NCBI GenBank assembly: GCA_024235135.1
Contig: JACKMZ010000002.1
Location: 304,975 to 368,974, forward strand
From: Gammaproteobacteria bacterium
GTDB taxonomy: Bacteria; Pseudomonadota; Gammaproteobacteria; Competibacterales; Competibacteraceae
Direction of reading: 5' to 3'
DNA length: 64,000 bases
Part shown: positions 1,015 through 28,028 of the stretch, in pieces
Numbering within the stretch: position 1 is the stretch's first letter
Layout: every line of letters begins with the position of its first letter
Program-made: the position numbers and the translations under genes
The notes under the pieces: generated by a model
What the model saw: the letters and a program-made list of their open reading frames with translations, nothing else
What the model was told of the DNA's origin: nothing
Databases searched by the model: none

Positions 1015-1027
1015 CGCGTCTAAATGC

Positions 1028-4778: not shown

Positions 4779-4866
4779 CCATGGATCGCAGCCGACCGTT
4801 TTGTTTATGCCCTAACGCAACGGGCGTGGCTGCTTGAGCGATACGAGCGAGGAACCGCTCGGTTCC

Positions 4867-11446: not shown

Positions 11447-11547
11447 TGGCCTGTCGCGGGTAACGAATCACTAGTAAAACGATAACTCCCAGGCCATATA
11501 GCCGATTGCCCGCTTGTCGCTAGGGGGCTACCTGCCCCTAGTCGTAG

Positions 11548-11584
11548 CCAACAACAGCCCGCAAGGGCTGTTGTTGTTTTCGAG
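11548..11584 (+). terminator. Rho-independent terminator-like hairpin (ccaacaacagccc-gcaa-gggctgttgttg, then TTTTCG)
   Basis: A perfect 12 bp GC-rich stem with a tetraloop is followed by a U-tract. It lies in the ~250 nt leader upstream of metH. Confidence 0.5.
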
Positions 11585-11703
11585 GATGCCATTCCCCCCC
11601 GACCCATTGGCGGCTCAGGATTGCGCCGATGGGTCAATCCGTACAGAATCCTGTTCCGAACCCCGATCATTCAAAATTCCAGCAAACCGAGCGAGTTTGA
11701 TCC

Positions 11704-14700
11704 ATGAACAATGAACGCATCGCCCAACTCAAGAGAATCCTGGAAGAACGCATTGTGATTCTGGATGGCGCCATGGGCACCATGATCCAGGGTTACAAGC
11801 TGACCGAAGGCGATTACCGGGGCGAGCGTTTCCGCAACTGGCCCAGCGATCTCAAGGGCAACAACGATTTGCTGGTGCTCACCCAACCCGACGTGATCCG
11901 CGAGATTCACACCGCCTATCTGAAGGCCGGCGCGGACATCATCGAGACCAACACCTTCAATTCCACCGCCATTTCGATGGCGGATTACCGCATGGAGGAA
12001 CTGGTTTACGAGTTGAATCTAAGCGCCGCGCGACTGGCTCGGGAGGCGGCCGACGCCGTGGCCCAGGCGACCGGCCAGCCGCGTTTCGTGGCCGGGGTGT
12101 TGGGGCCGACCAATCGGACCTGTTCGCTGTCGCCGGATGTGAACAATCCGGGATTTCGCAACGTCAGCTTCGCCGAACTGGTCGCCACTTACAGCGAGGC
12201 GACCCGTGCGTTGGTGGAAGGCGGCGCCGATGTGCTGCTGGTGGAAACCATTTTCGATACGCTGAACGCCAAGGCGGCCCTGTTCGCCATCATGCAATAT
12301 CGCGAACAAAATGGCGTGGACATCCCCATCATGATTTCGGGGACCATCACCGATGCTTCGGGCCGTACCCTGTCCGGCCAAGTGACCGAAGCCTTCTGGA
12401 ACTCGGTCCGCCATGCCGAGCCGCTGAGCATCGGTTTGAATTGCGCGCTCGGCGCGGCGCAACTGCGCCCGTATGTCGAGGAATTGTCGCGCATCGCGGA
12501 TACTCTTGTCTCGGCCCATCCCAATGCCGGCCTGCCTAACGAATTCGGGGAATACGACCAGGGCCCCGAGGAAATGGCCCTGATTATCCGTGAGTTCGCC
12601 GAGTCGGGTTTCGTTAACATCATCGGAGGTTGCTGCGGCACCACGCCGGCGCATATCCGCGCGATCGCCGAGGCGGTGCGCCGCCTCCCGCGCCGCGATA
12701 TTCCCGAGATTCCCCGACAGTGCCGTTTGTCGGGTCTGGAGCCCTGCAACATCGGTCTCGATTCGCTGTTCGTGAATGTCGGCGAACGCACCAATATCAC
12801 CGGTTCGGCTAAGTTCCGGCGCTTGATCAAGGCCGACGATTACAGCGCGGCCCTGGATATCGCCCGCCAGCAGGTGGAAAACGGCGCGCAGGTCATCGAC
12901 GTCAACATGGACGAAGGCATGCTGGATTCCGAGCAGGCCATGACCCGTTTTCTCTATCTCGTGGCCGCCGAACCGGACATTGCGCGGGTGCCGGTGATGA
13001 TCGATTCCTCCAAATGGTCGGTGATCGAGGCGGCGCTGCAATGCGTGCAGGGCAAATCGGTGGTCAATTCCATCAGCCTCAAGGAAGGCGAGGAAGCTTT
13101 CATCCATCATGCCAAGCTGGTGCGTCGCTACGGCGCGGCCGTCATCGTCATGGCCTTCGACGAAAGCGGTCAGGCCGATACCCGCCAGCGCAAGATCGAG
13201 ATTTGCCAACGCTCCTATCGAATACTCACCGAGCAGGTCGGTTTTCCCGCCGAGGACATCATTTTCGATCCCAATATCTTCGCGGTCGCCACCGGCATCG
13301 AGGAACACAACAACTATTCGGTGGATTTCATCGAGGCGACGAGAGAAATCAAGCGCACCCTGCCGCACGCACTGATTTCCGGTGGCGTGTCCAATGTGTC
13401 CTTCTCGTTCCGTGGCAACGACGCCGTGCGCGAAGCCATGCATTCGGTGTTTCTCTATCACGCCATTCAGGCGGGCATGGACATGGGCATCGTCAATGCC
13501 GGGCAGTTGGCCATTTACGAGGAAATCCCCCTGGAACTGCGGGAACGGGTCGAGGACGTCATCCTCAATCGCCGTCTGGATGCTACCGAGCGGTTGCTGG
13601 AGATCGCCGAGTCCTATAAAGGCGGCGGTACCCAAACCAAGAAGGAGGATCTGGCCTGGCGAGAATGGCCGGTGGCCAAACGCCTGGCACATGCCCTGGT
13701 CAAGGGAATCGACGAATATATCGAGAGCGACGCCGAGGAAGCCCGCCAGCGGGCGGAACGGCCGCTGCACGTGATCGAAGGGCCGTTGATGGACGGGATG
13801 AACGTAGTCGGCGATCTGTTCGGAGCCGGCAAGATGTTCTTGCCGCAGGTCGTGAAATCGGCGCGGGTCATGAAAAAAGCCGTGGCGCATCTGATCCCTT
13901 TTATCGAGGCGGAAAAAGCCGAAGGCGAGAAATCCCGCTCCAACGGCAAAATCGTCCTGGCCACGGTGAAAGGCGATGTGCACGACATCGGCAAGAACAT
14001 CGTCGGTGTGGTGCTTCAGTGCAACAACTTCGAGGTATTCGATCTCGGGGTGATGGTGCCGGCGCAAAAGATTCTCGATACCGCGCGGGAGGTCGGAGCC
14101 GACATGATCGGCCTGTCCGGTCTCATCACCCCGTCCTTGGACGAGATGGTGCACGTGGCCAAGGAGATGGACAGGCAGGCGTTTTCCCTGCCTTTGCTGA
14201 TCGGCGGGGCGACGACTTCGCAGATCCACACGGCGGTGAAAATCGATCCGCAATACGAACAGGCCGTGGTCTACGTCAAGGATGCCTCGCGCGCCGTCGG
14301 GGTGGCGCAAAATCTGATCAGCGAGACGTCGCGGGCGGACTACACGGCCCGCATCAAGGCCGATTACGTAGCCAAGCGCGAACAGCACAAGAATCGCCGC
14401 AGCCGGGAAGCCTCATTGACGCTGGACGAGGCGCGCGCCAACAAACCGGCTATCGACTGGCCGGCCTACGCGCCGACTCGGCCCCGGTTTCTGGGGGGGC
14501 TGACCCTGGCCGACTATCCATTGGAGGAACTGGTCGAACGCATCGACTGGACGCCGTTTTTCCAGACCTGGGAATTGCGCGGGCGTTTCCCCAAGATTCT
14601 CGACGACGAGACCGTCGGCGAGCACGCCCGCCAGCTATACCGGGATGCGCAAGCCATGCTGGAACGGGTGATCGAGGAAAAATGGCTGATCGCGCACGGC

Positions 14701-15402
14701 GTGATCGGCTTTTTCCCGGCCAATACCGTGGGCGATGACGATATCGAAATCTACGCTGACGAGGCGCGTGATCGGGTCTTGATGACCGTGCATCATTTGC
14801 GGCAGCAAAACCGCCGTCCGGCGGGCAAACCGAATCAAAGCCTGGCCGATTGGCTGGCGCCCAAGGACAGTGGCGTGGCGGATTATCTCGGCGCGTTTGC
14901 CGTGACAGCCGGGTTGGGCATCGAGGATCGTCTGGCCCATTTCGCGCGCGACCATGACGACTACAGCAGCATCCTGTTGAAGGCTCTGGCGGATCGTCTG
15001 GCCGAAGCCTTCGCCGAGCGTCTGCACGAACGGGTGCGCAAGGAATTCTGGGGATACGCGGCCGACGAACGGCTTAACAACGAAGCCCTGATCGACGAAG
15101 CCTATCAGGGCATTCGCCCCGCTCCCGGCTATCCGGCTTGCCCGGATCATACCGAGAAAGGGTTGCTCTGGGATTTGCTGGAAGTGGAGCGCAAGGCGGC
15201 CATCCATCTCACCGAGAGCTACGCCATGTTGCCGGCGGCGGCGGTGTCGGGCTGGTATTTCGCGCACCCGAAAGCCCGTTATTTCGGTTTGGGCAAAATC
15301 GAACGCGATCAGGTGGAGGATTATGCCAGGCGCAAGGGCATGAGTCTGGCCGAGGCCGAGCGTTGGCTGGCCCCCAACCTGAATTACGAACCCGAGGATT
15401 GA
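11704..15402 (+). CDS. metH: Cobalamin-dependent methionine synthase
   Basis: The 1232 aa ORF has the Hcy-binding, pterin-binding, B12-binding ('[11 protein letters not shown]') and AdoMet-activation domains in canonical order. Confidence 0.95.
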
Positions 15403-15435
15403 CAGCCAATAACCCGTATCCGAGAGAGGCGTGAC

Positions 15436-16119
15436 ATGACTCAAAGACTGGCAGGAAAACGCGTGTTGCTGACTCAGGTCGACCGCTTCATGGGGCCGGA
15501 CGTCAATGAACTGTTCGCGGCCGAAGGAGCAACGATCATCGGCGATTCCGGGGCCTTGGCGAGCACCGAGGAAGCGAATCGCCTGGCGGAAGCGACCGGA
15601 CCGGTCGATGTGCTGATCGCCAATCTGGCGGAAAGCAACCGGCCCAGTCCCATTGGCGAGATAAGCGACGAGGACTGGTTTAGCTTGTTCGATGCGCTGG
15701 TGCATCCCTTGATGCGGGTGATGCGGGCCGTGCTGCCGGGTATGATCGAGCGTGGACGGGGTAAGGTCGTGGTATTGGGTAGCGCCGCGCCGTTACGTGG
15801 GGCGCCCGGTTACGGAGCCTACTGCACCGCGCGGGGCGCGCAATTGTCGCTGGTCCGGGCCGTCGGATTGGAAGTCGCCCGGCACAACGTCCAGGTCAAC
15901 GCCATCGCCCAGAATTTCGTGGAGAATCCAACGTATTATCCGCCGGAGATGTTGGCCGATACCGCCCAAGTCGAACGGATGAAAAAGATGATTCCCGCGC
16001 GACGTTTCGCCAAGGGCGTGGAAACGGCGGAACTGGCTTTGTTTCTCGCGTCGGAAAGCAGCGACTTCATCAGCGGTCAAGTGATTCCCTTGGCGGGAGG
16101 ATGGGTGACGACGATGTGA
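15436..16119 (+). CDS. Atypical short-chain dehydrogenase/reductase-like NAD(P)-binding protein
   Basis: It is 227 aa with a Rossmann-like N-terminus and an SDR-like YxxxR/K region ('GYGAYCTARG'). The glycine motif is non-canonical. Confidence 0.45.
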   Translation: MTQRLAGKRVLLTQVDRFMGPDVNELFAAEGATIIGDSGALASTEEANRLAEATGPVDVLIANLAESNRPSPIGEISDEDWFSLFDALVHPLMRVMRAVLPGMIERGRGKVVVLGSAAPLRGAPGYGAYCTARGAQLSLVRAVGLEVARHNVQVNAIAQNFVENPTYYPPEMLADTAQVERMKKMIPARRFAKGVETAELALFLASESSDFISGQVIPLAGGWVTTM

Positions 16120-16149
16120 GCGGGGCCGACGAAGTGCGCCTAGAGCGGC

Positions 16150-16470
16150 TTGCTAAGCCGCTTTCACGCCTGTCGGCCGCTGGCTATAATGGGGCTCCAC
16201 TCTCATTGCGAGCCCCCGCCCATGGCACCCAAAGCAACGGAAATCATAGTCTCTAACAGGGTCGTTAGGACTCTCGGACAACGCCGCTCGATGCGGGCCA
16301 GTCTGGAACAGCGTGAACGGATGATTGCCGAAGCCGCTTATTATCTGGCCGAGGCGCGCGGGTTTCAGGGCGGCTCCCCGGTTCAGGACTGGCTGGATGC
16401 CGAAGCGACCATCGACCGCCAGTATTTTCAAATCCCCGCCGCGCTGCGTAATTCGCTGGTTTTCCTGTAA
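16150..16470 (+). CDS. DUF2934-domain protein
   Basis: The block 'RERMIAEAAYYLAEARGFQGGSPVQDWLDAEATI' matches the DUF2934 signature as I remember it. Confidence 0.4.
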   Translation: MLSRFHACRPLAIMGLHSHCEPPPMAPKATEIIVSNRVVRTLGQRRSMRASLEQRERMIAEAAYYLAEARGFQGGSPVQDWLDAEATIDRQYFQIPAALRNSLVFL

Positions 16471-16491
16471 AGCCGACGAGTTACGCCAACC

Positions 16492-17289
16492 TTAACGGCA
16501 CAGATTCTCGCACGGCGTACCGTCGCCATTGTGATCCAGATAATCCAGACCACAGACCACGAAGTAAAAACGCGCCTCGTCGCAATCGCGTAATTCCTCG
16601 CAGCGGGGGCGACGGCGGCACAAACGCGGGTATGGGCTAGAGGGGTTGGCCGCCCCGGTTGACGCGCCTTGCTGTGGCCGTGGCGTGAGTTCGATGCGCT
16701 GAATCTCGTCTTCACCCGCGCAAGCTTTCTCGCTGTACGACACCGAGCCGTCGGGACGCCGGCAGCGATGGACGACTGTGGTCCGCCATTCCGGCGTTGG
16801 CGTCTGACTGTGGCGGAATATCCAGGGCGGCAGCGGCTCGGTATCGGCCCATAAACCCCGGCGGGCTTGACGCGCCTGCTGTTCGATGGGGAACAGGGAC
16901 CGGTCCTTGGCGTATTGCCGATAGGACCAGGCCAATCCCAAACGCAGCATTTCCGCGCTGATGTCCAGATTGCTCACGTAAACCCGGCCGACGATCCGGC
17001 CGTAATGATCGCGGGTTTTTTCCACGACGCGCGCCGTCTTATGCAGTGTCAGATGCGCCAAGCTCCGCCGCGCCTGTGGCCCGTAATGCTGCGCTAATTC
17101 CGGGGCGTCGATTTCCGCCAGGCGAATGCGCAAAACGTCGCCGTCGGGTGTCCGCAAGGCAAGCGTATCGCCGTCGTGCACGGCCATGACGCGGCCCGTG
17201 TACACGGTTTCCGCGACGCTTGACGCAGCAATCGCTAACAATCCCAGGATCAAACAAAGCAGGCGGATAGGTGGGCAGCGGGCGAACAC
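16492..17289 (-). CDS. Secreted thermonuclease (SNase-like) with a C-terminal Excalibur-like Ca-binding motif
   Basis: It has a signal peptide and the SNase block 'VHDGDTLALR..GDVLRIRLAEIDAPE'. The C-terminal 'DYLDHNGDGTPCE' resembles the Excalibur DxDxDGxxCE motif. Confidence 0.7.
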   Translation of the reverse strand: MFARCPPIRLLCLILGLLAIAASSVAETVYTGRVMAVHDGDTLALRTPDGDVLRIRLAEIDAPELAQHYGPQARRSLAHLTLHKTARVVEKTRDHYGRIVGRVYVSNLDISAEMLRLGLAWSYRQYAKDRSLFPIEQQARQARRGLWADTEPLPPWIFRHSQTPTPEWRTTVVHRCRRPDGSVSYSEKACAGEDEIQRIELTPRPQQGASTGAANPSSPYPRLCRRRPRCEELRDCDEARFYFVVCGLDYLDHNGDGTPCENLCR

Positions 17290-17299
17290 GGAGACTCCA

Positions 17300-17812
17300 T
17301 CAATCAGCCGTGGGCTGAGCCACGCGATACAGACGAAAACCGCGCGCCTGATAATTGGCCAATGCGGCGGGATGGTCCAATGAGCAGGTATGGACCCATA
17401 CGCGGGTGGCGTCCCACGCCCAGGCGTGTTGCACGGCCGAGGTCAACAGCCAGCCGCCATAGCCGTGGCCGATGAAGGATTCGGTCAGACCGAAATAGAT
17501 GATTTCCACATCGAAACCGTCCGGGCGCTTTTGCCGTTGCAATTCGTAATAACCGACGATGGCCCCGTGCTCATAAGCGATATATGTTTTCAGGTTCGGA
17601 GCGTAAACGTAGGTTTGCCAGGCGTCATCGGACCAGCCGAGTTTGTCGGTCCATTGCCATTGTTCGCCCACCCAGCGATACAGAAAGCGGTTCAAGCGAT
17701 GTTGCTTGACGAGGCATTCAGCGACCGTCGGAGTGCCCGGTGCCGGCGGGCTGGGTTCGAGATGGCCGGGATCGCGCATCTCCAGGTAGTAAATCGTGAC
17801 GGGCTCCATCAA
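17300..17812 (-). CDS. GNAT family N-acetyltransferase
   Basis: It is 170 aa with the acetyl-CoA-binding region 'IGHGYGGWLL'. Confidence 0.7.
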   Translation of the reverse strand: MMEPVTIYYLEMRDPGHLEPSPPAPGTPTVAECLVKQHRLNRFLYRWVGEQWQWTDKLGWSDDAWQTYVYAPNLKTYIAYEHGAIVGYYELQRQKRPDGFDVEIIYFGLTESFIGHGYGGWLLTSAVQHAWAWDATRVWVHTCSLDHPAALANYQARGFRLYRVAQPTAD

Positions 17813-17922
17813 TATTTTCCGGATTTTTATTGACCGTTGATTTGGAAATTCAGGCGACCCATGCGGTTAGGCTGCGTGGTACGGGTCCCAAGACTCAATT
17901 GTTTTCGTGTGAGGTGGATGCC

Positions 17923-18990
17923 ATGAGCTTGTTCAAGAAGTTTTGGCGCAGCACCCGTCGCCCGACGCCGAGCAAACAGGAAGCGGCTTTGGGTTGCCTG
18001 CTCGGTGCTTGCGTGGGCGACGCGGCGGGGGCCACCCTGGAATTTCTGGGCCATCAGCCGACGCCTGACGAAGTCGATAAAGCCGTCAGGATGCCGGGCG
18101 GCGGCGTGCTGCGGGTTGCGCCCGGACAGATTACCGACGACGGCGAACTGACGCTATGTCTGGCGCGCGCATTGAGCGCCTCGCGACAATTCGATAGCGA
18201 AGCGATCGCCCGGCAATACGCCGAATGGGTGCGTAGCAAACCCTTTGACATCGGGTTCACCACCCGCCGTTCGTTGGGATGTTTTCACGAAGACTACGGC
18301 AGTTTTCAGGAAGACGGCTATTTCCGTTCGGTCTGCGAGCAGCAAGGCTACGCCGCGGCGATGCGCGAATCGGCGGCGAAATACTGCATGGGCTCCAAAG
18401 CCAACGGCGCACTCATGCGCATCGCGCCGCTGGGGGTGTGGGGTTATCGTCGGGACATCGACGAACTGGCGGATTACGCGCGACAGGATTCCAGCCTTTC
18501 CCATCCCGAGGAAAGCTGCTGGCAAGCCTCGGCCTGTTACGTGATCGCCATCGCTAGTCTGATCGACCGGCCGGGCGACCGAAGCCGCGCGTTCGAGAGG
18601 GCTGAACAGTGGGCGGAAAGGCAGGCCAACACGGAAGTCCGTGGCTGGCTAAACAATGCGCGGCAACAGGTCGAGGCGCCCTATGTGCCGCAGATCGGCT
18701 TCGTGCGGATCGCCTTTGCGCACGCTTTCCGGCATCTACTGCTGGGCAGTGATTACGTCTCCGCATTAAAAGAAACCTTGGCCGGTGGGGGCGATACCGA
18801 CACCAATGCCTGTATCGTCGGTGGATTGATCGGCGCGGCCTGCGGGGTCAGTCAAATACCCGACGAGATGTTGCAGCCGGTGTTGAGTTGCGATACCCGG
18901 CAAGGTGCGTATGAGCGGCCGGATTTTCTGAGCGCGGGGCAGTTGCCGGCGTTGGTGGAGGCGTTGCTTGTTCAATCTGGGGCCGAATGA
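17923..18990 (+). CDS. ADP-ribosylglycohydrolase family protein (DraG/ARH-like)
   Basis: It carries the 'GCLLGACVGDAAGATLEF' and 'GGDTDTNACIVGGLIGAA' metal-binding motifs of PF03747. The likely start is the internal ATG at 17923. Its last ~20 codons lie inside direct-repeat copy A. Confidence 0.8.
   Translation: MSLFKKFWRSTRRPTPSKQEAALGCLLGACVGDAAGATLEFLGHQPTPDEVDKAVRMPGGGVLRVAPGQITDDGELTLCLARALSASRQFDSEAIARQYAEWVRSKPFDIGFTTRRSLGCFHEDYGSFQEDGYFRSVCEQQGYAAAMRESAAKYCMGSKANGALMRIAPLGVWGYRRDIDELADYARQDSSLSHPEESCWQASACYVIAIASLIDRPGDRSRAFERAEQWAERQANTEVRGWLNNARQQVEAPYVPQIGFVRIAFAHAFRHLLLGSDYVSALKETLAGGGDTDTNACIVGGLIGAACGVSQIPDEMLQPVLSCDTRQGAYERPDFLSAGQLPALVEALLVQSGAE
18924..18990 (+). repeat. Direct repeat copy A: 3'-terminal coding segment of the ADP-ribosylglycohydrolase gene
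   Basis: It shares a 28 bp identical core (gcggggcagttgccggcgttggtggagg) and about 65 bp of overall similarity with 23374..23440. Both copies end in TGA in the same frame and encode ..AGQLPALVE.. Confidence 0.8.
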
Positions 18991-19444
18991 GCCGGTACTG
19001 TTTCAGGGCTTTGGAACCTTGCGTTTCGAAATGGGCATCAACGGCTATCGCGCCGAGCCGTTCTCGCTGCATGCTTTAACGCTGCCTGGATTTCGTCGTC
19101 GGTTTTTTGCGGGCCGTCGTATTGCAGGCAACCGGCTACGTCGTCGATGTGGGTTGGCTCGAATGGCGTCTTGGGTTTTTCTGGATGGCCTTGTTGTTTC
19201 CAAGGTGGTCATTCCTGTTGGTGCGACGTGAAGTGGGTTGTGCGTTCCGCTGTCAATTTCTTTCGGCCGGCAAAATCTTGCAGAAATGATTGTTTCAGAT
19301 TCATGCGTGGACTAGATAAAGGGGTGACACTCTTTATTCGAGAAGCCAACGCGGGGGCGCAAAGCGAAAACGTGATTTATCCCAAGATGTTAATGCGATT
19401 GATAACGCGCGGGATGAGGGGCGGTATGAGTTGGGGATAGAAAA

Positions 19445-20440
19445 ATGGCTAGTGCAGATCAATTAAAGGCGCTTCTAAAGTCGCATCTTGAGGGCGATAA
19501 CGAGCGATTTTTTTCCGTGGCGATGCAGGTAGCGGCGCACGAAGCAAAGCTAGGCCATGGCCGGCTAGCGGTAGAGTTGCGGGCCTTGATTGACCAAGCT
19601 AAGGCGCGTCGGGGGATGCCGCCGCAAGTTAGCGACAGGGCGATTCCTATCAGCCGCCCTCGCGGCGAACTGGTGGGATTACTCTCAGTAAGCTATCCGA
19701 AGGCGCGCCTCGGGGAAATGGTGTTGGATGACATCCTGTCGAGTCAGCTCAATCGAATCATCAAGGAACAGCGTCAGGCATCGCAAATTCTCGCTCACGG
19801 TTTGAATCCGAGAAGAAAATTGTTGCTGATGGGGCCACCGGGTACCGGAAAGACGATGACCGCATCGGTACTTGCGGGCGAATTAGGTTTGCCGTTGTTC
19901 CAAGTGCGTCTTGACGGGTTGATCACCAAGTATATGGGTGAGACTGCCGCCAAATTGCGGCAGGTATTTGAGGCAACAGACCGCACGCGGGGCGTGTATT
20001 TCTTTGATGAATTTGATGCCATTGGATCACAGCGTGGTCTGGTGAATGATGTCGGTGAGGTTCGACGGGTCTTGAATAGCTTCCTGCAGATGATCGAGCA
20101 GGATGAGTCCCACAGCCTGATCGTAGCGGCGACCAATCATCCCGAGATTTTGGATCACGCATTGTTTCGCCGCTTCGACGACGTGTTGCACTACGGGTTG
20201 CCGGATGAGCGCCATATAGCCGCGATGCTCAAGTCCCGCCTTGGGCGGATGGCGGCCAAAGGCGTTTCATGGACGCGGCTTGCTAGTGGGGCTGTCGGTC
20301 TGAGCTACGCTGAAGTGGCGCGCGCGTCGGACGACGTGCTGAAGGAGGCATTGATTGAGGATCGCAAGGAAATTACAGAAGAGGACATTCTGCAGGCGTT
20401 GCAGGAAAGGCTGCGGATCATAGAGCGACTCAAGTCGTGA
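19445..20440 (+). CDS. Classical AAA ATPase (IetA-like)
   Basis: It has the Walker A motif 'LLMGPPGTGKTMTA' and the Walker B motif 'VYFFDEFDAIG', with second-region-of-homology features. At 331 aa it is a single AAA module. Confidence 0.8.
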   Translation: MASADQLKALLKSHLEGDNERFFSVAMQVAAHEAKLGHGRLAVELRALIDQAKARRGMPPQVSDRAIPISRPRGELVGLLSVSYPKARLGEMVLDDILSSQLNRIIKEQRQASQILAHGLNPRRKLLLMGPPGTGKTMTASVLAGELGLPLFQVRLDGLITKYMGETAAKLRQVFEATDRTRGVYFFDEFDAIGSQRGLVNDVGEVRRVLNSFLQMIEQDESHSLIVAATNHPEILDHALFRRFDDVLHYGLPDERHIAAMLKSRLGRMAAKGVSWTRLASGAVGLSYAEVARASDDVLKEALIEDRKEITEEDILQALQERLRIIERLKS

Positions 20441-20459
20441 TAACGAAAGATTCTGGGAA

Positions 20460-22976
20460 TTGGGACGTCGAATGGCTGAACAGGAACATCAACGCAAACG
20501 GCACTTCATCCTGGAGGGTACGGCTGAGGCGAAGAGATTTCGTTCCCCACACAGGGTTGTTGGCAAGACAGTCGTACCGAACCGAAATCGAAATCAGCAT
20601 GGTCGTGCATTGTTGCGGCAAATCGAGGTGTTGCACCCACAAGTGAGCGTAGCTCGCGATGTGCAGGAAGCGGCTGGGCTCGAAGAGGGATTTGGCCTCC
20701 AGGTGGAGTTTGAGAGCTTCCCGGACATCGAGCTGGCCTTTGAGTCGCTAGCACGCGAACGCTCTGGCATTGAGCTATTGAACGTTCGGCGTGATGAGAA
20801 ACGCACGTTTGCAACTGTGTTTATCCCGGATGGCAAGTTACAAATTTTCGAGAAACTTATCCTGGCATACCTGGATGAATCAAAGGACACTAGGAAAGGC
20901 CCACGGAATCGGAAACTGCTCGACACAATCTCGGAAATTCGCGCCGCAACGCTCAATGCACTTTGGACCGATGATGCTGCGATGTTTCCCACTTCAGATG
21001 ATGAGGCGTTCTGGTGGGAGATATGGCTTCCCGTAAGAGGCGACCGGGAGGCTACCACGGCGCGATTCAAGCAACTTGCACAAGGACTTGAATTTCAGGT
21101 TTTCCCCGGCGAACTCCTGTTTCCAGAGCGTACTGTACTGCTTGCTTACGGATCGGCAGGCAAGATGAAACGCTCAATGCTGACGTTGAACAGCATTGCG
21201 GAACTGAGGCGAGCGAAAGAGACAGCAGAGTTTTTCGACGCATTGCCGCCGGGCGAACAGCCGGCTTGGCTTGACGATTTGCGCCAGCGGATGACCGTGC
21301 CGGTAGAAGATGCAAATGTACCGCACGTTTGCGTGCTCGATACCGGTGTGAACTATGGCCACCCGCTAATTGCCACCGCGCTGACGGCTGCGGATTCGCA
21401 TACGGTCGAACCGGGCTGGGGCACTGACGATGAGGATGGTCATGGAACCGCCATGGCGGGTTTGGCCTTGGCGGGAAATCTGACTGAATCGCTGGCTTCC
21501 AATGACCCAATCCAGGTTGGGCATCGCCTCGAATCCGTAAAACTGCTGCCCGAAGATGGCGCCAATGGAAGTGACGCGATACACCATGGCTACCTAACCG
21601 CTGAAGCGGTTGCGCGACCGGAAATCTCGGCGCCGCTGCGTCGTCGACTGTTCAGTATGGCCGTAACTGCCCGTGACAACCGTGATCGCGGCCGACCGTC
21701 GGCGTGATCAGCCACAATTGATCGGCTGGCTGCGGATTCAGACGGGTATGGGGAAACGCAACGGCTGTTCGTAGTCTCCGCGGGAAACGTCAGCGATCCG
21801 AATGCGTGGGTTGAGTACCCCACGAGCAACGAAACGGATGGAATCCACGATCCGGGGCAAAGCTGGAATGCACTGACTGTTGGGGCGGCGACCAATCTCG
21901 TGCAAATCACGGAGCCGGACGCCGACGATTATCAACCAATCGCGCCCGCAGGTGGTCTGAGTCCATTCAGCACGACAACGTTGACTTGGGCGCGTCAGTG
22001 GCCCTTCAAACCCGACATCGTCTTCGAAGGTGGCAATGCAGCGAAAAATGCATTAGGGGCGGTGTGGATGCCGAGTCTAAGTCTTCTCACGGCAAATTCG
22101 AGACCCCATGAGCGCCTGTTTACCACGGCAAATGCAACCAGTGCGGCATCGGCGTTAGCAGGGCGTATGGCAGCACAGTTGATGGTGGAATATCCGGAAC
22201 TATGGCCTGAGACTATTCGGGCACTCATCGCGCATTCGGCGGAATGGACCGATGCGATGCGTCAGGCGTTCCTTCCGGTCAACGGCCTATCGAGTAAGAA
22301 GGACGTCGCTAGCCTTATTCGTCGTTGCGGCTTCGGAATGCCTGATTTGGAGCGGGCAATGTGGAGTGTCGAGAACTCCCTCACCATGATATGCGAGGAA
22401 CAACTACATCCTTTCAAACGCGAAGGTCCAAAAGATCCGACTTTGCGGGACATGAATTTTCACCGTTTACCCTGGCCATTACAGGAGCTTGAGGCACTGG
22501 GCGAAACGCAAGTGGAGATGCGGGTGACTCTCTCGTATTTCATCGAGCCTAACCCATCCGCACGCGGATTTTCGGCGCGCTATCGGTACCAGTCACATGG
22601 TTTGAGATATGACGTGAAACGTCCACTTGAATCAATGGCCGACTTCAGTGCACGAATCAATGCCGCAGCGCGCGACGAGGAGGAGCGGACACGAGCCGAA
22701 GGCGGCGATCAAGGCTGGATCGTCGGAATTCAGAACCGGCACAAGGGGTCTCTTCATTCAGACATCTGGCGAGGCAGTGCCGCAGACCTCGCAAGTAGAG
22801 GTTTAATCGGAGTCTATCCTGTTTCGGGTTGGTGGAAAACGCGGCCACAGTTGGAGCGTGTCGACAGCATTGCTCGGTACGCGCTTGTGGTGTCTATTCA
22901 CGCCCCGAAGGTCGACGTAGAACTCTATACTGCTGTGGCAAATCAAATTGCTGCAACGGTCGCTGTTCAAGTCTGA
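20460..22976 (+). pseudogene. Cytoplasmic subtilisin-like (S8) peptidase (IetS-like), interrupted by one in-frame TGA at 21705..21707
   Basis: The catalytic Asp ('CVLDTGV') and His ('DGHGTAMAG') lie before the stop. The oxyanion Asn ('VVSAGN') and Ser ('ANATSAASALAG') lie after it, in the same frame with no other stops. There is no signal peptide, and a ~290 aa non-protease N-terminal region precedes the protease domain. Confidence 0.6.
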
Positions 22977-22991
22977 GGCGGTTGCAAAGCT

Positions 22992-23156
22992 TTGCCAAAT
23001 TCACAAAAAGAATCAGCCAAACTGACCGGCGAAGGGCAGAAAGCTGTCGAGACGGCCGCTTTCGATTTGCAGACTAACCCCAAAAATCTTGAGCACGGTT
23101 TTCATAACCTGGAGCGCGCGAAGGATAAGATTTTCTGGTCCGTGCGTGTGAGCTAG
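22992..23156 (+). pseudogene. Possible degenerate RelE/ParE-family toxin remnant
   Basis: The in-frame translation '..NPKNLEHGFHNLERAKDKIFWSVRVS*' resembles the 'NP..G..L.....WelRv' region of RelE/ParE toxins and is then truncated. No ATG start is present. This is a weak call. Confidence 0.2.
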
Positions 23157-23373
23157 GATATTCGCCTTAGTGTTCATCGCCCCGCCTCTAGTCTGCTAAT
23201 TTGCCACGTTGACCATCACGGCTACGCCTCACTGGGCGGAAAAACGCAAGCTGGAAACCCATCCTAAAACCGGCGCAGCTTCCAAACTGCGAGAACGGGT
23301 TGAAGAAATCCGCGTATGTTGACGAAACTGAAGGTCTGCGGTTTTCAAAAGCCTTGGTATTCGAGGAATCGAC

Positions 23374-23440
23374 TTTTCTGCGAGCGGGGCAGTTGCCGGC
23401 GTTGGTGGAGGTGTTAATGGCGCAATCCAGTTGCGATTGA
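23374..23440 (+). repeat. Direct repeat copy B (ttttctgcgagcggggcagttgccggcgttggtggaggtg...gattga)
   Basis: It aligns with 18924..18990 and encodes ..LRAGQLPALVEVLMAQSSCD*, which resembles the C-terminus of the ADP-ribosylglycohydrolase. Confidence 0.8.
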
Positions 23441-23451
23441 GGAAAGCCACG

Positions 23452-24324
23452 ATGTCCCAGTACTGGACGTATATATCAGAATGGCAAAGCAGTTCGGGCC
23501 GCACGCCGCCTGACGGTATTTTATTCGCCGTCGGCGATATTCATGGGCGGCTTGACCTGCTCACCGCTATGCAACGAACCATCCGACAGCAGATGGCGTT
23601 GTCCGTTGCCGCTACCAGATCGGTCATTTATCTGGGTGACTACATCGATCGTGGCCGGAACAGTCTGGAGGTGTTGCGGACATTAGCTAAAGGCATGGGC
23701 GATACCGGGGTCAACGAGCATTATCTGCTGGGCAATCATGATCTCGGCCTGCAACATCTGCTGGAAATGGAATTTGGGGACAACGAGTTATTGCTGATTT
23801 GGTTCGAATACGGCGGCAAGAATACTTTGGAGCGTATGGGCGTACCGTGGCCAGGATACTTTGCTTCCAAGGATATGTTTGGTGAATATCAACAGAAGGT
23901 CCGGGCGGTATTGGGCGCCGAAGTTGTCCGATTCCTGGAATGCCTCCCGGCTTTTCACCAAAACGGTGACTATTTATTCGTGCACGCGGGTATCGACCCC
24001 AACCGCGGTGGGTCAATCGACCAACAGGATTTTGCCGATTTGCTGTTGATGCGGGAACCGTTCTTGTCATGGCCCAGTCCCTGGCCGTTTCCATTCTGCG
24101 TGGTGCATGGCCATACACCTGCCCGGCCAACGGTACGCGCCCATCGAATTGGGGTGGATACCGGTGCTTTTTATACGGACACGTTGACCGCCGCGCAGTT
24201 TGAGGGTACGCAGGTTCGCTTTGTGAGCGTGTCGACTCGTCGTACTTGCGATTGGCTTGAGTCATTGCCTGACAACGGCTGGCGGAATACCTACGGACCA
24301 CCGCAGCGGATAGAGAAGGAATGA
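23452..24324 (+). CDS. Calcineurin-like (PPP-family) metallophosphoesterase, PrpA/ApaH-like
   Basis: It has the 'GDIHGR', 'GDYIDRG' and 'GNHD' metal-binding motifs. A GAGGAAAG ribosome-binding site precedes the ATG at 23452. Confidence 0.8.
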   Translation: MSQYWTYISEWQSSSGRTPPDGILFAVGDIHGRLDLLTAMQRTIRQQMALSVAATRSVIYLGDYIDRGRNSLEVLRTLAKGMGDTGVNEHYLLGNHDLGLQHLLEMEFGDNELLLIWFEYGGKNTLERMGVPWPGYFASKDMFGEYQQKVRAVLGAEVVRFLECLPAFHQNGDYLFVHAGIDPNRGGSIDQQDFADLLLMREPFLSWPSPWPFPFCVVHGHTPARPTVRAHRIGVDTGAFYTDTLTAAQFEGTQVRFVSVSTRRTCDWLESLPDNGWRNTYGPPQRIEKE

Positions 24325-24397
24325 GCTTTGAAAAACTCGAAAGCAAGCGAAGGTGTTGCGCTGACGCGCATCAAAAACCTGAGAAATCTATACGAAG

Positions 24398-24440
24398 CTC
24401 GCTGAAAACAAACCAAAAACGGGCGTCCGCGAACGCCCGT
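24398..24440 (-). terminator. Intrinsic terminator (acgggcgt-ccgcga-acgcccgt, then a T-rich run on the minus strand)
   Basis: An 8 bp GC stem is followed on the minus strand by TTTTTGGTTTGTTTTC. It lies downstream of the minus-strand gene at 24465..24749. Confidence 0.5.
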
Positions 24441-24464
24441 CCGGTCCTAAATCGCGGTCTGTGA

Positions 24465-24749
24465 TCAAGCGGTGGTCGCTAAGCTCATACCCCAGTCGAA
24501 GGTGTTTTCACGGCTTTTTCCGCTTCCCAGGCTCGGTAGGCGCTCAATGTGCACCTGGCCGGATTCGGAGCGCCAGATTCTCAAACAGACTTCCTCGCCA
24601 CTGCTGGCTTCCAGCTCGAATTCGACGCCAAATTGTGGACCATCCGGTTCCAATGGCCCGTTCAGGTAATGCTCAAGCGCGAGATAGGCCACCTGCCAGA
24701 ACTCGATGCTCAGCGAATCAGGATGCTGATTGTGCAAGGTAACCGTCAT
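24465..24749 (-). CDS. Hypothetical protein (94 aa)
   Basis: The internal ATG has a GGAGAA ribosome-binding site. There is no recognisable family. Confidence 0.35.
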   Translation of the reverse strand: MTVTLHNQHPDSLSIEFWQVAYLALEHYLNGPLEPDGPQFGVEFELEASSGEEVCLRIWRSESGQVHIERLPSLGSGKSRENTFDWGMSLATTA

Positions 24750-24936
24750 GCTGGTGTTTCTCCAATCTGTAGAACGGTGAAGTGTCGCAAATTTTGCGCA
24801 GCCTGTCCTGATTCGCTGCACGAAAGTCGGCAAATTAGAGAATGAAAGTTACAGAAAGTTGACACCCCCACTGGATTTTTTTTGACTTTGGAATCGCCGG
24901 GAGATTGCCAAAGTCCGAAACCAGCCGGCCTGTTTT

Positions 24937-27900
24937 TCAAGCAGGCCGGGATCGCCGTTTGCGCCATTGGCCTACCATGAACATGCGATACAGGAGTGGT
25001 ATTACCAGCATAGTCAAGATTGTGGAGAAACCCAGCCCCCAAACGATGGCTGTCGCGACAGGCCCCCAAATCAACGATTTGCCAGCCAGTCCCGCCGCCA
25101 GGGAAAATAATCCGGCAATGGTGGTCAGGGAGGTGATCAGAATCGGAATGACCCGGCGCCGAGCGGCATACAGCGTGGCGTGCATAACGGACATGCCCGC
25201 CGCCAGACGATCGTTGGCCGCCGAGATGAGCACGATCGCGGCATTGACGGCGATGCCGGCCAACGCCACCACGCCGTACATCGTATACAGGCTGAGTGGA
25301 TTGCCGGTGATCAGCAGACCCAGCACTACGCCGGTGAAAGCCAGAGGCACCGTGGACAGTATCAGGATAGGCTGGAAATAGCTTTTGAACTGGGTTCCCA
25401 GAATCAGATAGATCAGACCCACGCCGAGCAGAAACAACACGACGATGGAGTCCAGGCTTTCCTGTATGTCGTCCAACTCGCCCGAGAAATCCAGATCCAC
25501 GCCCGGATAATCGCGGCGCAGCGTCTCCCAGGCCGTGCGTACGTCCTGATTGGCTTTGACGGTGTCCGTCTGTTCCTTGTCGATGTCGGCCTCCACGGTG
25601 ATTGCTCGGCGGAAACCGTAATGACGGATGTTCCCCTGGCTCTGGCGGGTTTGTCGGTGCACCAGTTCGGCGAGCGGGATACGGCCGCCGTTCGGCGTAG
25701 GCAGCGTGTAGCGCAGGAGGTCGTCGACGGCGTTCAAGATAGTCGGCATGGCGCGCACCCGCACGTCCAGGGTTTCCCCGCGATCCTGCAGGCTGGCGAC
25801 GATTTCGCCGTCGACCAGCAAGCCGACGGTGCGGGCGATCACGGCCGGATCGAGGCCGCTCCGTTGCGCGGCGTCCTGATTGACGCGCAATTCCAGTTCC
25901 TGCAAACCGGGGCTGTCGTCGTTGGTGATGTCGTGGATCGTCGAATTGGCGGCCAGGGCCGTTTGCAGGGCTTGTACGGCCGCCCGCAATTCACCGAGAT
26001 CGTCACCGCGTACTTTGACGCTGATGGGTTTGGAGGTGGGCGGGCCGCCGGTCAACCGCAAAAACGACACCTTGACCGGTCCCAGCGTACTTTCCACGTC
26101 CGCGCGCATGGATTCGATCATCTCTTCCACGTCGCGCAATGCCGGCGTTTTGGGGTTCAGGCCAACCTGAATCTGACCGTATTGATCGCCGAACAAGGGG
26201 GCGATTTCGGTGAACGCCTGACCGGCATAGCTGACGATGGCGCGCGCCTCGCCGTCCTTGATGTGGCGGCGGACCTTGGCTTCGATTTCCTGGGTTTTGG
26301 CCAGCGTCAGTTCCAGCGGCGCGCCGGTCGGCATCGCCACGTTGACGTAGAACAAGCGCAGCGTGTCGGCCGCGAAGAAATCGACCTTGATCTGGCCCGT
26401 GGCCACGGCGGCGATAGCCCCGGAAAACATGATCAGGGTGGCCAGCAGCATGCTCTTGGGATAGCGCAGGACGCGGATCAGCAGCCGGGTATAGTTCAGC
26501 CGCAACCAGTGCAAAAAACGCACGCGGTAGCGATGGATGCGCGATGGGCGCTGAAAGTTGATGTTCGCGCTCATGACGTGCGCCGGCAGCATCCAGAAGG
26601 CTTCCATCAGGCTGATGGTCAAGGCCGTGGTCACCACCAGCGGAATGACCAGCATGAATTGGCCGAGAATGCCGGGCAGCAGCATCAAGGGCAGAAAAGC
26701 CGCGATGGTGGTCAGTACCGCCGTGGTGACGGGGGCGAAGACTTCCTTGAGCGATTCCAGCGTCGCCGTCAGCGCGTCCAGGCCACGTTGTACCCGATAA
26801 AAAACCGCCTCCACCACGACCACGGCGTCGTCCACCAGCATGCCCAGACTGATGACGACGCCGAGCAGGACCGTCACGTTGAGCGTCTGCCCCAGGATGC
26901 TCAACATCCAGAAGGTGCCGGCCAGGATGAAGGGAATGCCGATACAGGTCAGCAGAGCGATGCGGCTGCCGAGAAACAGCCAAGTGACCAGCAAGACCAG
27001 CAACAGGCCGACGATGGCGTTGTTCTGCATCAAGCGCAGGGCGTTGCGGGTGATGGTGGTTTGATCGTCCACCAGGACCAGTCGCACGCCGGTACGGTCG
27101 CTGAGGCTGTTGCGCGTTTCCAAATAGGCTTTGATGCGCTCCACCAATTCCAGCATATTGGCTTCCGCTTTCTTGGTGATCCCCAGCATGACGGCGGGTT
27201 GACCGTCGAAGCGCACCAATTGTTCGGCTTTGCGTCGGCCGCGTTCCACCACGGCCAGGGTGCTTAACGGTACTTCACCCTGGGCGGTGACCACCGGCAA
27301 ATGCGCAAGATACTGCGGATCGCTCTCGGCCCCGGCCAGCCGTATCAGCCAATCGCGCTGATTGACCTGGACGGTGCCGGCCGCCACGTCGCGATAATAG
27401 CGGGTCACGGTGTCGGCCAGATCCGGTGGCGTCAGGCCCAATCCCTCCAGGCGATCCGGAAAGAATTTGACTTGTAGCTCCGGCTCGTGCAGCGCGACCT
27501 CCATGACCTGATCCACGCCTTTGAGGCGCTCCAGATCCTCCTTGACGGCTTCGGCTTGCCAACGCAGGTTTTCATCGTCGGCCGGCCCCGAGACCACCAA
27601 CGAGGCGCTGGGAAACGCGTTGGACGAAGTGATCTCCAGAATCCGTGGCGTTTCCGCCGCTTCCGGAAGTTCCCGTTCCTTGTTCTGGATTTCCCGCCGT
27701 AGGTCGTTGACCCGTTTATCGAAAACCGCGGGTTCGATATCCTCGAAGCGGACCAATACGCTGGAAATGCCCTCGCGGCTGTTGCTGGAGACGAAGCGCA
27801 CGTCGGACACCTTGCGCACGGCGTCTTCCAGGATGTCGGTGACTTGCTTTTCCACATCCTCGGCGGAAGCTCCGGACAGCACGGTGGTGATGTCTAACCA

Positions 27901-28023: not shown

Positions 28024-28028
28024 GCGAA

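What the first reader, a model, noticed from the sequence alone, without database searches (positions are those of the whole stretch)
18924..23440. IetAS-like AAA-ATPase plus cytoplasmic subtilase module inserted into the 3' end of an ADP-ribosylglycohydrolase gene, bounded by a ~65 bp direct repeat that rebuilds the gene's C-terminus
Two copies of an imperfect ~65 bp repeat lie at 18924..18990 and 23374..23440. They share a 28 bp identical core. Both end in an in-frame TGA and encode similar peptides, ..AGQLPALVEALLVQSGAE* and ..AGQLPALVEVLMAQSSCD*. The first copy is the actual 3' end of the ADP-ribosylglycohydrolase CDS. The second sits 4.45 kb downstream, immediately before a PPP-phosphatase gene. 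This is the footprint of an element that integrated into a gene's 3' end and carried a replacement terminus, as tRNA/tmRNA-targeting islands do. Here the target is a protein-coding gene, and no integrase lies inside the element. The cargo is a classical AAA ATPase (19445..20440) followed 19 bp later by a long subtilase with no signal peptide (20460..22976). As I recall it, that gene pair matches the IetA/IetS anti-phage system of Gao et al. 2020, whose mechanism is unknown. A relE/parE-like remnant after the subtilase gene strengthens the mobile or defence context.
Basis: partly seen in the sequence, partly recalled or inferred. Interest (0 to 1): 0.85.

Follow-up and report, generated by a model that had tools for sequence, protein, structure and literature searches.

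The report
Decayed IetAS cassette behind a duplicated gene end
A horizontally acquired and now partly broken IetA/IetS toxin-antitoxin/anti-phage cassette sits just after an ADP-ribosylglycohydrolase gene, flanked by two diverged copies of that gene's last 27 codons; both the cassette type and this integrase-free way of inserting are already described, so the locus is instructive but ordinary.

Summary
The repeat is real. The last 27 codons plus the stop of the ADP-ribosylglycohydrolase (ARH) gene (18907-18990) recur at 23357-23440, 11 nt before a metallophosphatase (PPP) gene. The 28-nt exact core is far longer than chance allows. IetA (19445-20440) and IetS (20472-22976) match the PADLOC IetA and IetS models.

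IetS carries an in-frame TGA at an invariant Trp codon, between the catalytic His and Ser, and independent assemblies show it too. The "relE/parE remnant" is the first ~118 codons of a UvrD-like helicase gene. That helicase follows IetS in 36 of 80 related loci, usually within a type III Res-Mod-IetA-IetS-helicase block. No integrase is present.

Related cassettes show the same anatomy at unrelated genes: an MFS transporter gene in Chromohalobacter and a TraG gene in Acidithiobacillus. Their repeats share no motif. This fits "insertion with long target duplication" described for restriction-modification cassettes, or a crossover with a carried-along gene end, better than tRNA-island-style site-specific integration.

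No empty-site allele was found, so the insertion history remains inferred. The locus is a new member of known kinds, of modest interest.

The parts
17923..18990 (+). ADP-ribosylglycohydrolase (ARH) gene, 355 aa, intact; this is the target gene
   Evidence: Pfam ADP_ribosyl_GH 3.7e-59. It is identical to P0001, which NCBI names as from a Gammaproteobacteria MAG. GC3 is 0.71, like host genes.
18907..18990 (+). Repeat copy 1: the last 27 codons plus TGA of ARH (..YERPDFLSAGQLPALVEALLVQSGAE*). The exact core is 18934-18961.
18991..19434 (.). Unassigned 444-nt spacer with low GC (0.52). It has no detectable gene, RNA family, promoter or terminator consensus, and no homology to related cassettes.
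   Evidence: (six-frame Pfam: nothing).
19445..20440 (+). ietA: AAA+ ATPase, 331 aa, intact. It is reported as the antitoxin partner.
   Evidence: PADLOC IetA 2e-76 over residues 3-322; Pfam AAA 2.5e-30. It is 66-87% identical to 80 loci in many phyla.
20472..22976 (+). ietS: S8 subtilase (reported as the toxin), here a pseudogene. An in-frame TGA at 21705-21707 is codon 412.
   Evidence: With the stop repaired: PADLOC IetS 5.5e-41 and Pfam Peptidase_S8 1.1e-56. Trp is invariant at this column in 57 of 57 homologs. Asp290 and His324 lie upstream and Ser557 downstream. The TGA is also present in independent assemblies L001 and L002.
22992..23322 (+). Remnant of the cassette's third gene, a UvrD-like helicase with an N-terminal RelE/HigB-like domain. 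Only profile positions 13-118 of 690 remain. There is an in-frame TAG at 23154-23156 and a frameshift near 23229-23231.
   Evidence: tblastn to plasmid UvrD-helicase / '3'-5' exonuclease' genes gives 4e-31. The gene follows IetS in 36 of 80 related loci. Profile alignment. Pfam domains of the intact homolog.
23323..23356 (.). 34 nt of unassigned sequence between the helicase stump and repeat copy 2
   Evidence: It shows no similarity to post-helicase sequence of relatives above shuffled controls. The helicase profile does not continue into it.
23357..23440 (+). Repeat copy 2: an orphan ARH 3' end (..FEESTFLRAGQLPALVEVLMAQSSCD*). The exact core is 23384-23411.
23452..24324 (+). Metallophosphatase (PPP-type) gene, 290 aa. 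It starts 11 nt after the orphan TGA, with AGGAAAG in between.
   Evidence: Pfam Metallophos 2.7e-12. GC3 is 0.61. Its nearest homologs (60% and 55% identity) are not next to an ARH gene.
24465..24749 (-). Small conserved ORF (94 aa) downstream of the RND efflux pump gene. It marks native chromosome to the right of the island.
   Evidence: An ortholog (54% identity by tblastx) sits in the same place after the 80%-identical pump gene of a Competibacteraceae MAG, locus L095.

Best explanation
A foreign IetA-IetS-helicase cassette was inserted directly behind the ARH stop codon without a recombinase of its own. This cassette subfamily usually travels with a type III restriction-modification pair.

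The insertion left two copies of the ARH 3' end. One completes the ARH gene. The other is an orphan, left 11 nt in front of the PPP gene.

The most likely route is host homologous recombination. The incoming DNA carried a short ARH 3' end from an earlier host, possibly as a circle excised between such repeats. It crossed over with the resident ARH inside the 28-nt identical stretch. ARH would then have received a foreign tail, while its own tail stayed downstream. This is the 'insertion with long target duplication' class known for restriction-modification cassettes.

Afterwards the cassette decayed:
- The helicase was truncated to 118 codons and picked up a nonsense codon and a frameshift.
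- The protease-toxin gene ietS acquired a TGG-to-TGA nonsense codon upstream of its catalytic serine.
- The ATPase-antitoxin gene ietA stayed intact.

As it stands the locus should not give IetAS-type defence.

Shown: the anatomy, the family matches, the lesions, the foreign composition and the recurrence of the architecture elsewhere. Inferred: the direction and mechanism of the insertion.
For: - Repeat and core.
- Mismatches avoid a 28-nt block. Shuffle P is 2e-4 over 84 nt and 2e-3 over 67 nt. Both copies keep the frame and stop at the same codon.
- Foreign origin. GC3 is 0.55-0.63 against 0.68-0.79 for host genes. IetA is 85-87% identical to homologs in Phycisphaerales and Burkholderiaceae, while the host's pump gene has no relative above 80%.
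- DNA homology to relatives starts at 19435-19445 and ends at 23279-23310, which are module boundaries.
- Pfam hits for all called genes across 15023-28262 include no recombinase. Twenty further window ORFs, including ten of typical integrase size, also have none.
- The same architecture occurs at other genes with no integrase between the repeats:
  - L037: 100 nt at 98% identity, ending exactly at the TGA of an MFS gene and flanking Res-Mod-IetA-IetS-helicase.
  - L035: a 146-nt core at 94% identity plus a diverged in-frame tail running to the stop of a TraG/VirD4 gene.
  - Sources.
- The repeats share no motif.
- Decay:
  - The nonsense codon replaces a Trp invariant in 57 of 57 homologs.
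  - It is present in independent assemblies.
  - The helicase remnant is defined.
  - IetS is disrupted or absent beside an intact IetA in 13 of 67 related loci.
- Literature:
  - Integrase-free insertion of restriction-modification cassettes with 46-423-bp target duplications, often spanning stop codons (PMC2853133).
  - IetS as toxin and IetA as antitoxin (PMC13069673).
  - RM III and ietAS co-localise (bioRxiv 10.1101/2022.08.21.504612).
Against: - No empty-site allele or close relative of this organism was found. The polarity of the event is therefore inferred, including which tail is native and whether insertion occurred here or in an ancestor.
- The repeat is only 79% identical. Published long target duplications are mostly above 90%.
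- The window cassette lacks the R and M genes that define the published class.
- A 28-nt identity is near the lower limit for RecA-dependent exchange (own knowledge).
- ARH-PPP adjacency is not seen in any relative examined.
- PPP has lower GC3 than ARH.
- Only 3-4 of 53 related loci with both flanks available show tight flanking repeats.
Confidence: 0.55

Rival explanations
1. The segment is the remnant of a classical integrative island. A site-specific integrase recombined an attP that carried the ARH 3' end with the ARH gene, using the 28-nt core as the att core. The integrase gene was later deleted, or it acts in trans from elsewhere in the genome.
For: - There is an exact 28-nt core with diverged arms, and the repeat runs precisely to the stop codon, as tRNA-type att sites run to the end of the tRNA.
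- The island interior has clearly suffered deletion, since the helicase is truncated about 34 nt from copy 2.
- E. coli IetAS can sit in a tRNA-Thr-associated decayed conjugative island.
Against: - No recombinase domain was found in the island, in 15023-28262, or in the other window ORFs tested.
- Homologous cassettes flanked by duplicated gene ends in L035 and L037 also lack an integrase between the repeats. They sit at unrelated genes with unrelated repeat sequences.
- The 444-nt region next to copy 1 shows no trace of a recombinase gene in any frame.
Confidence: 0.2
2. Copy 2 is what remains of a second, full-length ARH paralog that formed an operon with PPP. A deletion running from helicase codon ~118 into that paralog removed all but its last 27 codons. 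On this view the repeat is not an insertion footprint.
For: - The orphan end is spaced like an operon junction: 11 nt, with a ribosome-binding-like AGGAAAG, before the PPP start.
- The helicase truncation lies only about 34 nt from the start of copy 2, as a single deletion would give.
- PPP and copy 2 lie within the same low-GC tract.
Against: - A 28-nt perfect block inside otherwise ~60%-identical flanks is not expected between old paralogs.
- The same terminal-fragment architecture recurs at other genes in L035 and L037.
- No second ARH-like sequence is present elsewhere in the window.
- The nearest ARH relatives have a single gene end and no PPP neighbour.
Confidence: 0.12
3. The insertion produced a true target duplication, with two initially identical copies of the last ~84 nt of ARH. 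The event is old. The copies have since diverged, and a recent gene-conversion patch restored 28 identical bases.
For: - Published long target duplications start out identical, and L037 is still 98% identical.
- The orphan copy is under no selection.
Against: - The cassette's own pseudogenes are barely decayed. The helicase remnant is as similar to homologs as expected from IetS divergence, and IetS has a single lesion. A 29% divergence of the repeat since insertion is therefore hard to accept.
- The orphan still has no indel and stops at the same codon.
- In L035 the orphan tail differs by in-frame indels, which is typical of a once-functional ortholog rather than of decay.
Confidence: 0.1

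Closest known systems
IetAS (PADLOC IetA and IetS models; Gao et al. 2020 is recalled from memory only; toxin-antitoxin roles as stated in PMC13069673)
   Same: An AAA+ ATPase gene is followed on the same strand by a long cytoplasmic S8 subtilase gene, and both match the IetA and IetS profiles. Homologs are common on conjugative plasmids (338 plasmid records).
   Different: Here ietS is interrupted by a nonsense codon before the catalytic serine. The cassette also belongs to a subfamily with a third gene (a UvrD-like helicase) and usually an upstream type III restriction-modification pair. Both are missing or truncated in the window.
Insertion with long target duplication of restriction-modification cassettes (Nobusato et al. 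2000; Furuta, Abe and Kobayashi 2010, PMC2853133)
   Same: A short insert (4.4 kb) with no mobility gene is flanked by a direct repeat longer than 30 bp. The repeat spans the stop codon of the neighbouring gene and so leaves that gene intact. The homologous full cassette in L037 carries type III R and M genes between 100-bp repeats.
   Different: The window insert has no R or M gene. Its repeats are 79% rather than above 90% identical, with a mosaic pattern of an exact core and diverged arms. No empty site is available.
tRNA/tmRNA-targeting integrative islands and prophages
   Same: Direct repeats rebuild the 3' end of the target gene up to its last functional base.
   Different: There is no integrase, the target is a protein-coding gene, and no att motif is conserved among related cassettes.
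ietHAS (Liu-DS4, PMC13069673)
   Same: It is an IetAS system that has recruited a helicase reported to be essential for defence.
   Different: That helicase is SNF2/DrmD-like. Here and in 36 related loci the helicase is UvrD-like (Pfam UvrD-helicase and UvrD_C; PADLOC NERD+UvrD and GajB-like). It has a weak RelE/HigB-like N-terminus and lies downstream of ietS.
Co-localised RM III and ietAS in E. coli (bioRxiv 10.1101/2022.08.21.504612)
   Same: Type III Res and Mod genes lie directly upstream of IetA in about 33-43 of the 80 related loci.
   Different: The window has lost Res-Mod or never had it. Homology to relatives begins about 10 nt before the ietA start.

Membership tests
IetAS | AAA+ ATPase matching the IetA profile over its full length | tested here: met
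   PADLOC PDLC02196 gives 2e-76, residues 3-322 of 331. Pfam AAA gives 2.5e-30.
IetAS | S8 subtilase matching the IetS profile | tested here: met
   PADLOC PDLC02198 gives 5.5e-41 over residues 277-831. Pfam Peptidase_S8 gives 1.1e-56. The query was the reading frame with the stop replaced by W.
IetAS | The two genes are adjacent on the same strand, with ietA first | tested here: met
   The ietA stop is at 20440 and the ietS ATG at 20472.
IetAS | Both genes intact, with the catalytic triad encoded in one product | tested here: not met
   The TGA at 21705-21707 is codon 412, lying between His324 and Ser557. Trp is invariant there in 57 of 57 homologs. The stop is also present in independent assemblies.
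IetAS | Confers phage resistance or plasmid stabilisation | not testable with these tools
   This needs expression and plaque or stability assays.
Site-specific integrative island (tRNA/tmRNA-island type) | Integrase or recombinase gene inside or at the edge of the element | tested here: not met
   No recombinase Pfam family was found in genes across 15023-28262, in six-frame translations of 18985-19450, or in 20 further window ORFs.
Site-specific integrative island (tRNA/tmRNA-island type) | Flanking direct repeats (attL/attR) that rebuild the target's 3' end | tested here: met
Site-specific integrative island (tRNA/tmRNA-island type) | Related elements share a conserved att core | tested here: not met
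   The repeats of the window, L035, L037 and L038 share nothing above shuffled controls.
Site-specific integrative island (tRNA/tmRNA-island type) | Empty site with a single repeat copy in related genomes | tested here: inconclusive
   No ARH relative above 76% identity exists in the protein collection. Two collection scans found none. The 76% relatives have one gene end, but in a different gene neighbourhood.
Insertion with long target duplication (Nobusato 2000; Furuta 2010) | Direct repeat longer than 30 bp flanking an insert shorter than 20 kb that has no mobility genes | tested here: met
   The repeat is 68-84 nt and the start-to-start spacing is 4450 nt. No mobility genes are present.
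Insertion with long target duplication (Nobusato 2000; Furuta 2010) | Insert contains restriction and modification genes | tested here: not met
   There is no Res or Mod gene in the window insert. Both are present in the homologous repeat-flanked cassette L037 and in about 33-43 of 80 relatives.
Insertion with long target duplication (Nobusato 2000; Furuta 2010) | The two repeat copies and the single copy at the empty site are near-identical | tested here: inconclusive
   The copies are 79% identical with a mosaic pattern. No empty site is available.

The most novel reading that the evidence does not exclude
IetAS-type defence cassettes, with or without their type III restriction-modification and helicase partners, may spread between distant genomes without any recombinase of their own. 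Each would carry a short 3'-terminal piece of whatever host gene it last sat behind. It would be excised as a circle by recombination between the duplicated gene ends. It would then re-integrate by host homologous recombination into the orthologous gene of a new host, swapping that gene's tail each time. The exact core with diverged, still in-frame tails seen in the window and in L035 would be the signature of such terminus-swapping hops.
Probability: 0.25. Interest if true: 0.55.

Novelty: new member of a known kind. Interest (0 to 1): 0.3.

Why it matters
- **Annotation risk.** Both halves of the broken ietS gene still hit the IetS profile. Automated defence-system callers could therefore score this locus as a complete IetAS system. 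Counts of "systems per genome" from metagenome-assembled genomes can be inflated this way.
- **Toxin decays first.** Toxin broken with antitoxin kept is the state found here. The same state occurs in 13 of 67 related loci, which fits the reported toxin-antitoxin roles of IetS and IetA.
- **Integrase-free movement.** Duplicated gene ends recur around homologous cassettes at unrelated genes. This adds examples outside restriction-modification systems proper of an integrase-free insertion mode whose mechanism is still unsettled.
- **No new system.** None of this opens a new class of system.

Tried and rejected
- **Empty-site search.**
  - Pattern scans of genome contigs and metagenome contigs with the ARH protein found no relative.
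  - The protein collection holds no ARH between 77% and 99% identity.
  - The two 76% relatives lie in unrelated neighbourhoods next to a PARG-like gene.
  - The nearest PPP homologs (60%, 55% and 43% identity) are not next to an ARH gene.
  - Exact-sequence look-ups of IetA, ARH and PPP returned only the same population, at 99.9-100% identity and with the island present.
  - Relatives of the adjacent efflux pump (80% and 74% identity) share only the pump operon and the small downstream ORF.
- **The 444-nt spacer.** It gave nothing in six-frame Pfam, Rfam, promoter/terminator scans, plasmid blastn, or comparison with 80 related loci.
- **Does the helicase frame run on into copy 2?** I noticed a faint peptide resemblance. 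A profile of 20 helicases stops at position 118 and gives no hit in the third frame, so I rejected the idea.
- **The 34 nt before copy 2.** They do not match sequence downstream of the helicase gene in relatives any better than shuffled controls do.
- **Common att motif.** None was found among the repeats of the four loci.
- **tblastx flank-against-flank screen.** It was too noisy in GC-rich genomes to add cases beyond L035, L037, L038 and L072. L038's repeat lies inside a pentapeptide-repeat gene and is ambiguous. L093's repeat looked by eye like an IS21 IstB-type fragment, which I did not test.
- **GC as a boundary marker.** I rejected it, because the native small ORF has GC3 0.62, as low as PPP.


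Full report
**1. The observation**

It lies at 18924-18991 and 23374-23441, is 68 nt long and is 79% identical. Every other repeat family in the region is 23 nt or shorter.

The 28-nt core GCGGGGCAGTTGCCGGCGTTGGTGGAGG occurs exactly twice in the 64-kb window, at 18934 and 23384. This holds even with up to 3 mismatches allowed, and none is expected in 100 shuffles.

At protein level the similarity is slightly longer. ARH residues 329-355 align to 23357-23437 at 56% identity. Each copy is therefore 27 codons followed by an in-frame TGA at the same position.

Copy 1 is the real end of an ADP-ribosylglycohydrolase (ARH) gene at 17923-18990 (Pfam 3.7e-59). Copy 2 ends 11 nt before the ATG at 23452 of a metallophosphatase (PPP) gene.

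**2. The cargo**

The ORF at 19445-20440 matches the PADLOC IetA model over its whole length (2e-76). The frame at 20472-22976 matches IetS (5.5e-41) and Peptidase_S8 (1.1e-56).

The subtilase frame is not open, however. A TGA at 21705-21707 splits it into 411-aa and 358-aa ORFs. In an alignment of 57 intact homologs this column is invariably Trp. The stop is codon 412. It follows catalytic Asp290 and His324 and precedes Ser557.

The stop is not a sequencing error. Independent assemblies from other sequencing runs are 99.98-100% identical across it and were called as two genes there.

The sequence after ietS is not a relE/parE gene. It is the first ~118 codons of a UvrD-family helicase:
- tblastn to plasmid genes annotated "UvrD-helicase domain-containing protein" or "3'-5' exonuclease" gives 4e-31.
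- A profile built from 20 full-length homologs aligns positions 13-84 in one frame and 86-118 in another.
- An in-frame TAG lies at 23154-23156.
- Nothing aligns beyond about 23322.

The intact homolog has a sub-threshold HigB/RelE-like hit at its N-terminus (E 0.026).

**3. Relatives of the cassette**

A scan of one genome per species returned 80 loci whose IetA is 66-87% identical. They come from many phyla. The list includes Planctomycetota, Chloroflexota, Acidobacteriota, Gemmatimonadota, Verrucomicrobiota and several proteobacterial classes.

Clustering their ORFs shows a recurrent block:

| Position | Gene | Size | Evidence |
|---|---|---|---|
| 1 | Type III Res | ~1020 aa | Pfam ResIII plus a sub-threshold RE_endonuc hit |
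| 2 | Type III Mod | ~930 aa | PADLOC MTase_III, 1425 bits |
| 3 | IetA | ~330 aa | |
| 4 | IetS | ~835 aa | |
| 5 | UvrD-like helicase | ~690 aa | Pfam UvrD-helicase and UvrD_C |

The helicase start follows IetS in 36 loci. Mod is present in 43 loci and Res in 33. Many contigs are cut short, so these are minimum counts.

Co-localisation of RM III with ietAS has been reported for E. coli (bioRxiv 10.1101/2022.08.21.504612). An IetAS variant with a different, SNF2-type helicase has been shown to need that helicase (PMC13069673).

DNA similarity between the window and these loci starts about 10 nt before the ietA ATG (19435-19445) and ends at 23279-23310. The window thus holds only the IetA-IetS-helicase' part. 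The 444 nt between the ARH stop and ietA match nothing I could search.

None of the 80 loci has an ARH or PPP homolog within 10 kb.

**4. Is the segment foreign, and is it decaying?**

Host genes in the window have GC3 of 0.68-0.79, and ARH has 0.71. IetA has 0.63 and IetS 0.55-0.57.

IetA is more similar to homologs in other phyla (85-87%) than the neighbouring efflux-pump gene is to its closest known relative (80%, Competibacteraceae).

Low GC is not a reliable boundary, though. PPP (0.61) and the small ORF at 24465-24749 (0.62) are also low. Yet that small ORF is native, because its ortholog follows the pump gene in the Competibacteraceae MAG.

The lesions appear recent. The helicase stump is 61-67% identical to homologs, as expected from IetS divergence. 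IetS fits the identity expected from IetA.

Loss or disruption of IetS beside an intact IetA is common. It occurs in 13 of 67 related loci. These loci were found through IetA, so the opposite state could not be counted.

IetS is reported as the toxin and IetA as the antitoxin (PMC13069673). The pattern is therefore the usual decay of a toxin-antitoxin pair.

**5. What the repeat means**

Four observations bear on this.

(a) The 24 mismatches in the 84-nt alignment avoid a 28-nt block. Shuffling the mismatches reaches such a run with P about 2e-4, or 2e-3 for the 67-nt version. Both copies keep the frame, have no indel and stop at the same codon. The orphan copy cannot be under selection. The pattern therefore points to a crossover or conversion inside the core between two diverged ARH ends, not to even decay of a duplication.

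(b) The same anatomy surrounds homologous cassettes at other genes.
- In Chromohalobacter (L037), the last 100 nt of an MFS transporter gene are repeated at 98% identity, ending exactly at its TGA. The second copy lies 77 nt after the helicase gene. Only the five block genes lie between the copies.
- In Acidithiobacillus montserratensis (L035), IetA-IetS lies between the real end of a TraG/VirD4 gene and an orphan fragment. The orphan has a 146-nt core at 94% identity. It then continues as an open frame of about 115 codons to a stop at the equivalent position. It differs from the real end by substitutions and in-frame indels. That is how two once-functional orthologous gene ends look.
- L038 has a 70-nt repeat of unclear meaning.
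- In all, 3-4 of 53 loci with both flanks available show such tight repeats.

(c) The repeats of the different loci share no motif above shuffled controls.

(d) No recombinase domain is present in the places searched:
- the genes called across 15023-28262;
- six-frame translations of the spacer;
- 20 other window ORFs.

The window also has no tRNA gene.

**6. Comparison with what is known**

Furuta, Abe and Kobayashi (PMC2853133), following Nobusato et al. 2000, described "insertion with long target duplication". In it, restriction-modification cassettes of types I to IV, shorter than 20 kb and without mobility genes, are flanked by direct repeats. The repeats listed are 46-423 bp long and often span a start or stop codon, so the neighbouring gene survives. 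L037 fits that description directly.

The window locus fits in anatomy but departs from it in three ways. It lacks R and M genes. Its repeat is 79% identical, with a mosaic pattern. No empty site is available.

It fails on the defining recombinase and on a conserved att site.

IetAS itself is a known system with an unknown anti-phage mechanism.

**7. Mechanism, with likelihoods**

- **About 0.55.** The cassette was inserted behind ARH without its own recombinase, in the long-terminal-duplication class. The preferred sub-model is DNA carrying an ARH end from a previous host. That DNA crossed over with the resident gene within the 28-nt identical stretch by host homologous recombination. A variant anchors one end by homology in ARH and joins the other end illegitimately inside the helicase gene. 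That would also explain why the helicase stump abuts copy 2.
- **About 0.2.** A site-specific integrase, now deleted or acting in trans.
- **About 0.12.** A leftover of a second ARH paralog.
- **About 0.1.** An old true duplication plus a conversion patch.

In every model the cassette is now defective.

**8. What could not be done**

I found no empty-site allele and no close relative of this organism. Section 5 therefore rests on internal pattern and on analogy with related loci. The decisive tests are listed separately. They are read-level searches for empty or circular junctions, genomes of the same genus, and recA dependence.

**9. Verdict**

The locus is a decayed member of a known system, inserted in a known integrase-free manner. 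Interest is modest, at 0.3.

Noticed in passing
L015-L094 (for example L022 3970-15600; L037 4030-15594): A five-gene block recurs across many phyla: type III Res, type III Mod, IetA, IetS, and a UvrD-like helicase with a weak RelE/HigB-like N-terminus. IetA identities are 66-87%. RM III / ietAS co-localisation is reported in the literature, but I did not find this UvrD-type helicase partner described in the papers I read.
   Followed up: partly
L039, L044, L046, L049, L054, L063, L065, L072, L082, L085, L086, L089, L092: IetS is frameshifted, internally deleted, interrupted by inserted genes, or absent next to an intact IetA. This holds in 13 of 67 related loci. The protease gene therefore seems to be lost first repeatedly.
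   Followed up: partly
L073 7165-7234 and 14945-15014: A 70-nt repeat (96% identical) encodes the C-terminus of the type III Mod protein. One copy sits just upstream of IetA, after a 666-aa gene inserted between Mod and IetA. This is another duplicated gene end flanking an insertion, this time inside the block itself.
   Followed up: no
window 1-5000: This tract has much lower GC than the rest of the window (0.45-0.49 against about 0.60; GC3 0.42-0.60). It encodes a class I methyltransferase, a glyoxalase-like protein and three ORFs with no Pfam match. It is probably a separate acquired segment at the window edge.
   Followed up: partly
window 24465-24749 (-) and L095 13234-13521: A small conserved protein of 94-95 aa with no Pfam family is encoded directly downstream of the RND efflux pump gene. 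It occurs both here and in a Competibacteraceae MAG (54% identity).
   Followed up: partly
L097 (E. coli NCTC9008, NZ_LR134236.1) 11096-21500: In E. coli a distant IetAS pair sits immediately after tRNA-Thr next to proA. It is followed by a HigA antitoxin gene and by traJ/trbJ/trbL remnants and IS1 copies. This looks like a decayed conjugative island at a tRNA site.
   Followed up: no
L006 11495-12364 and L007 11127-11996: The two closest ARH homologs (76% identity) are each followed by a convergent microbial PARG-like gene. This suggests an ADP-ribose-removal gene pair in those genomes, which is absent from the window.
   Followed up: no
window 30092-30862 (-): This ORF gives a weak tblastn match to the ARH protein (23% identity over 146 aa, E 0.03). 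It could be a distant ARH-family paralog or a chance match.
   Followed up: no
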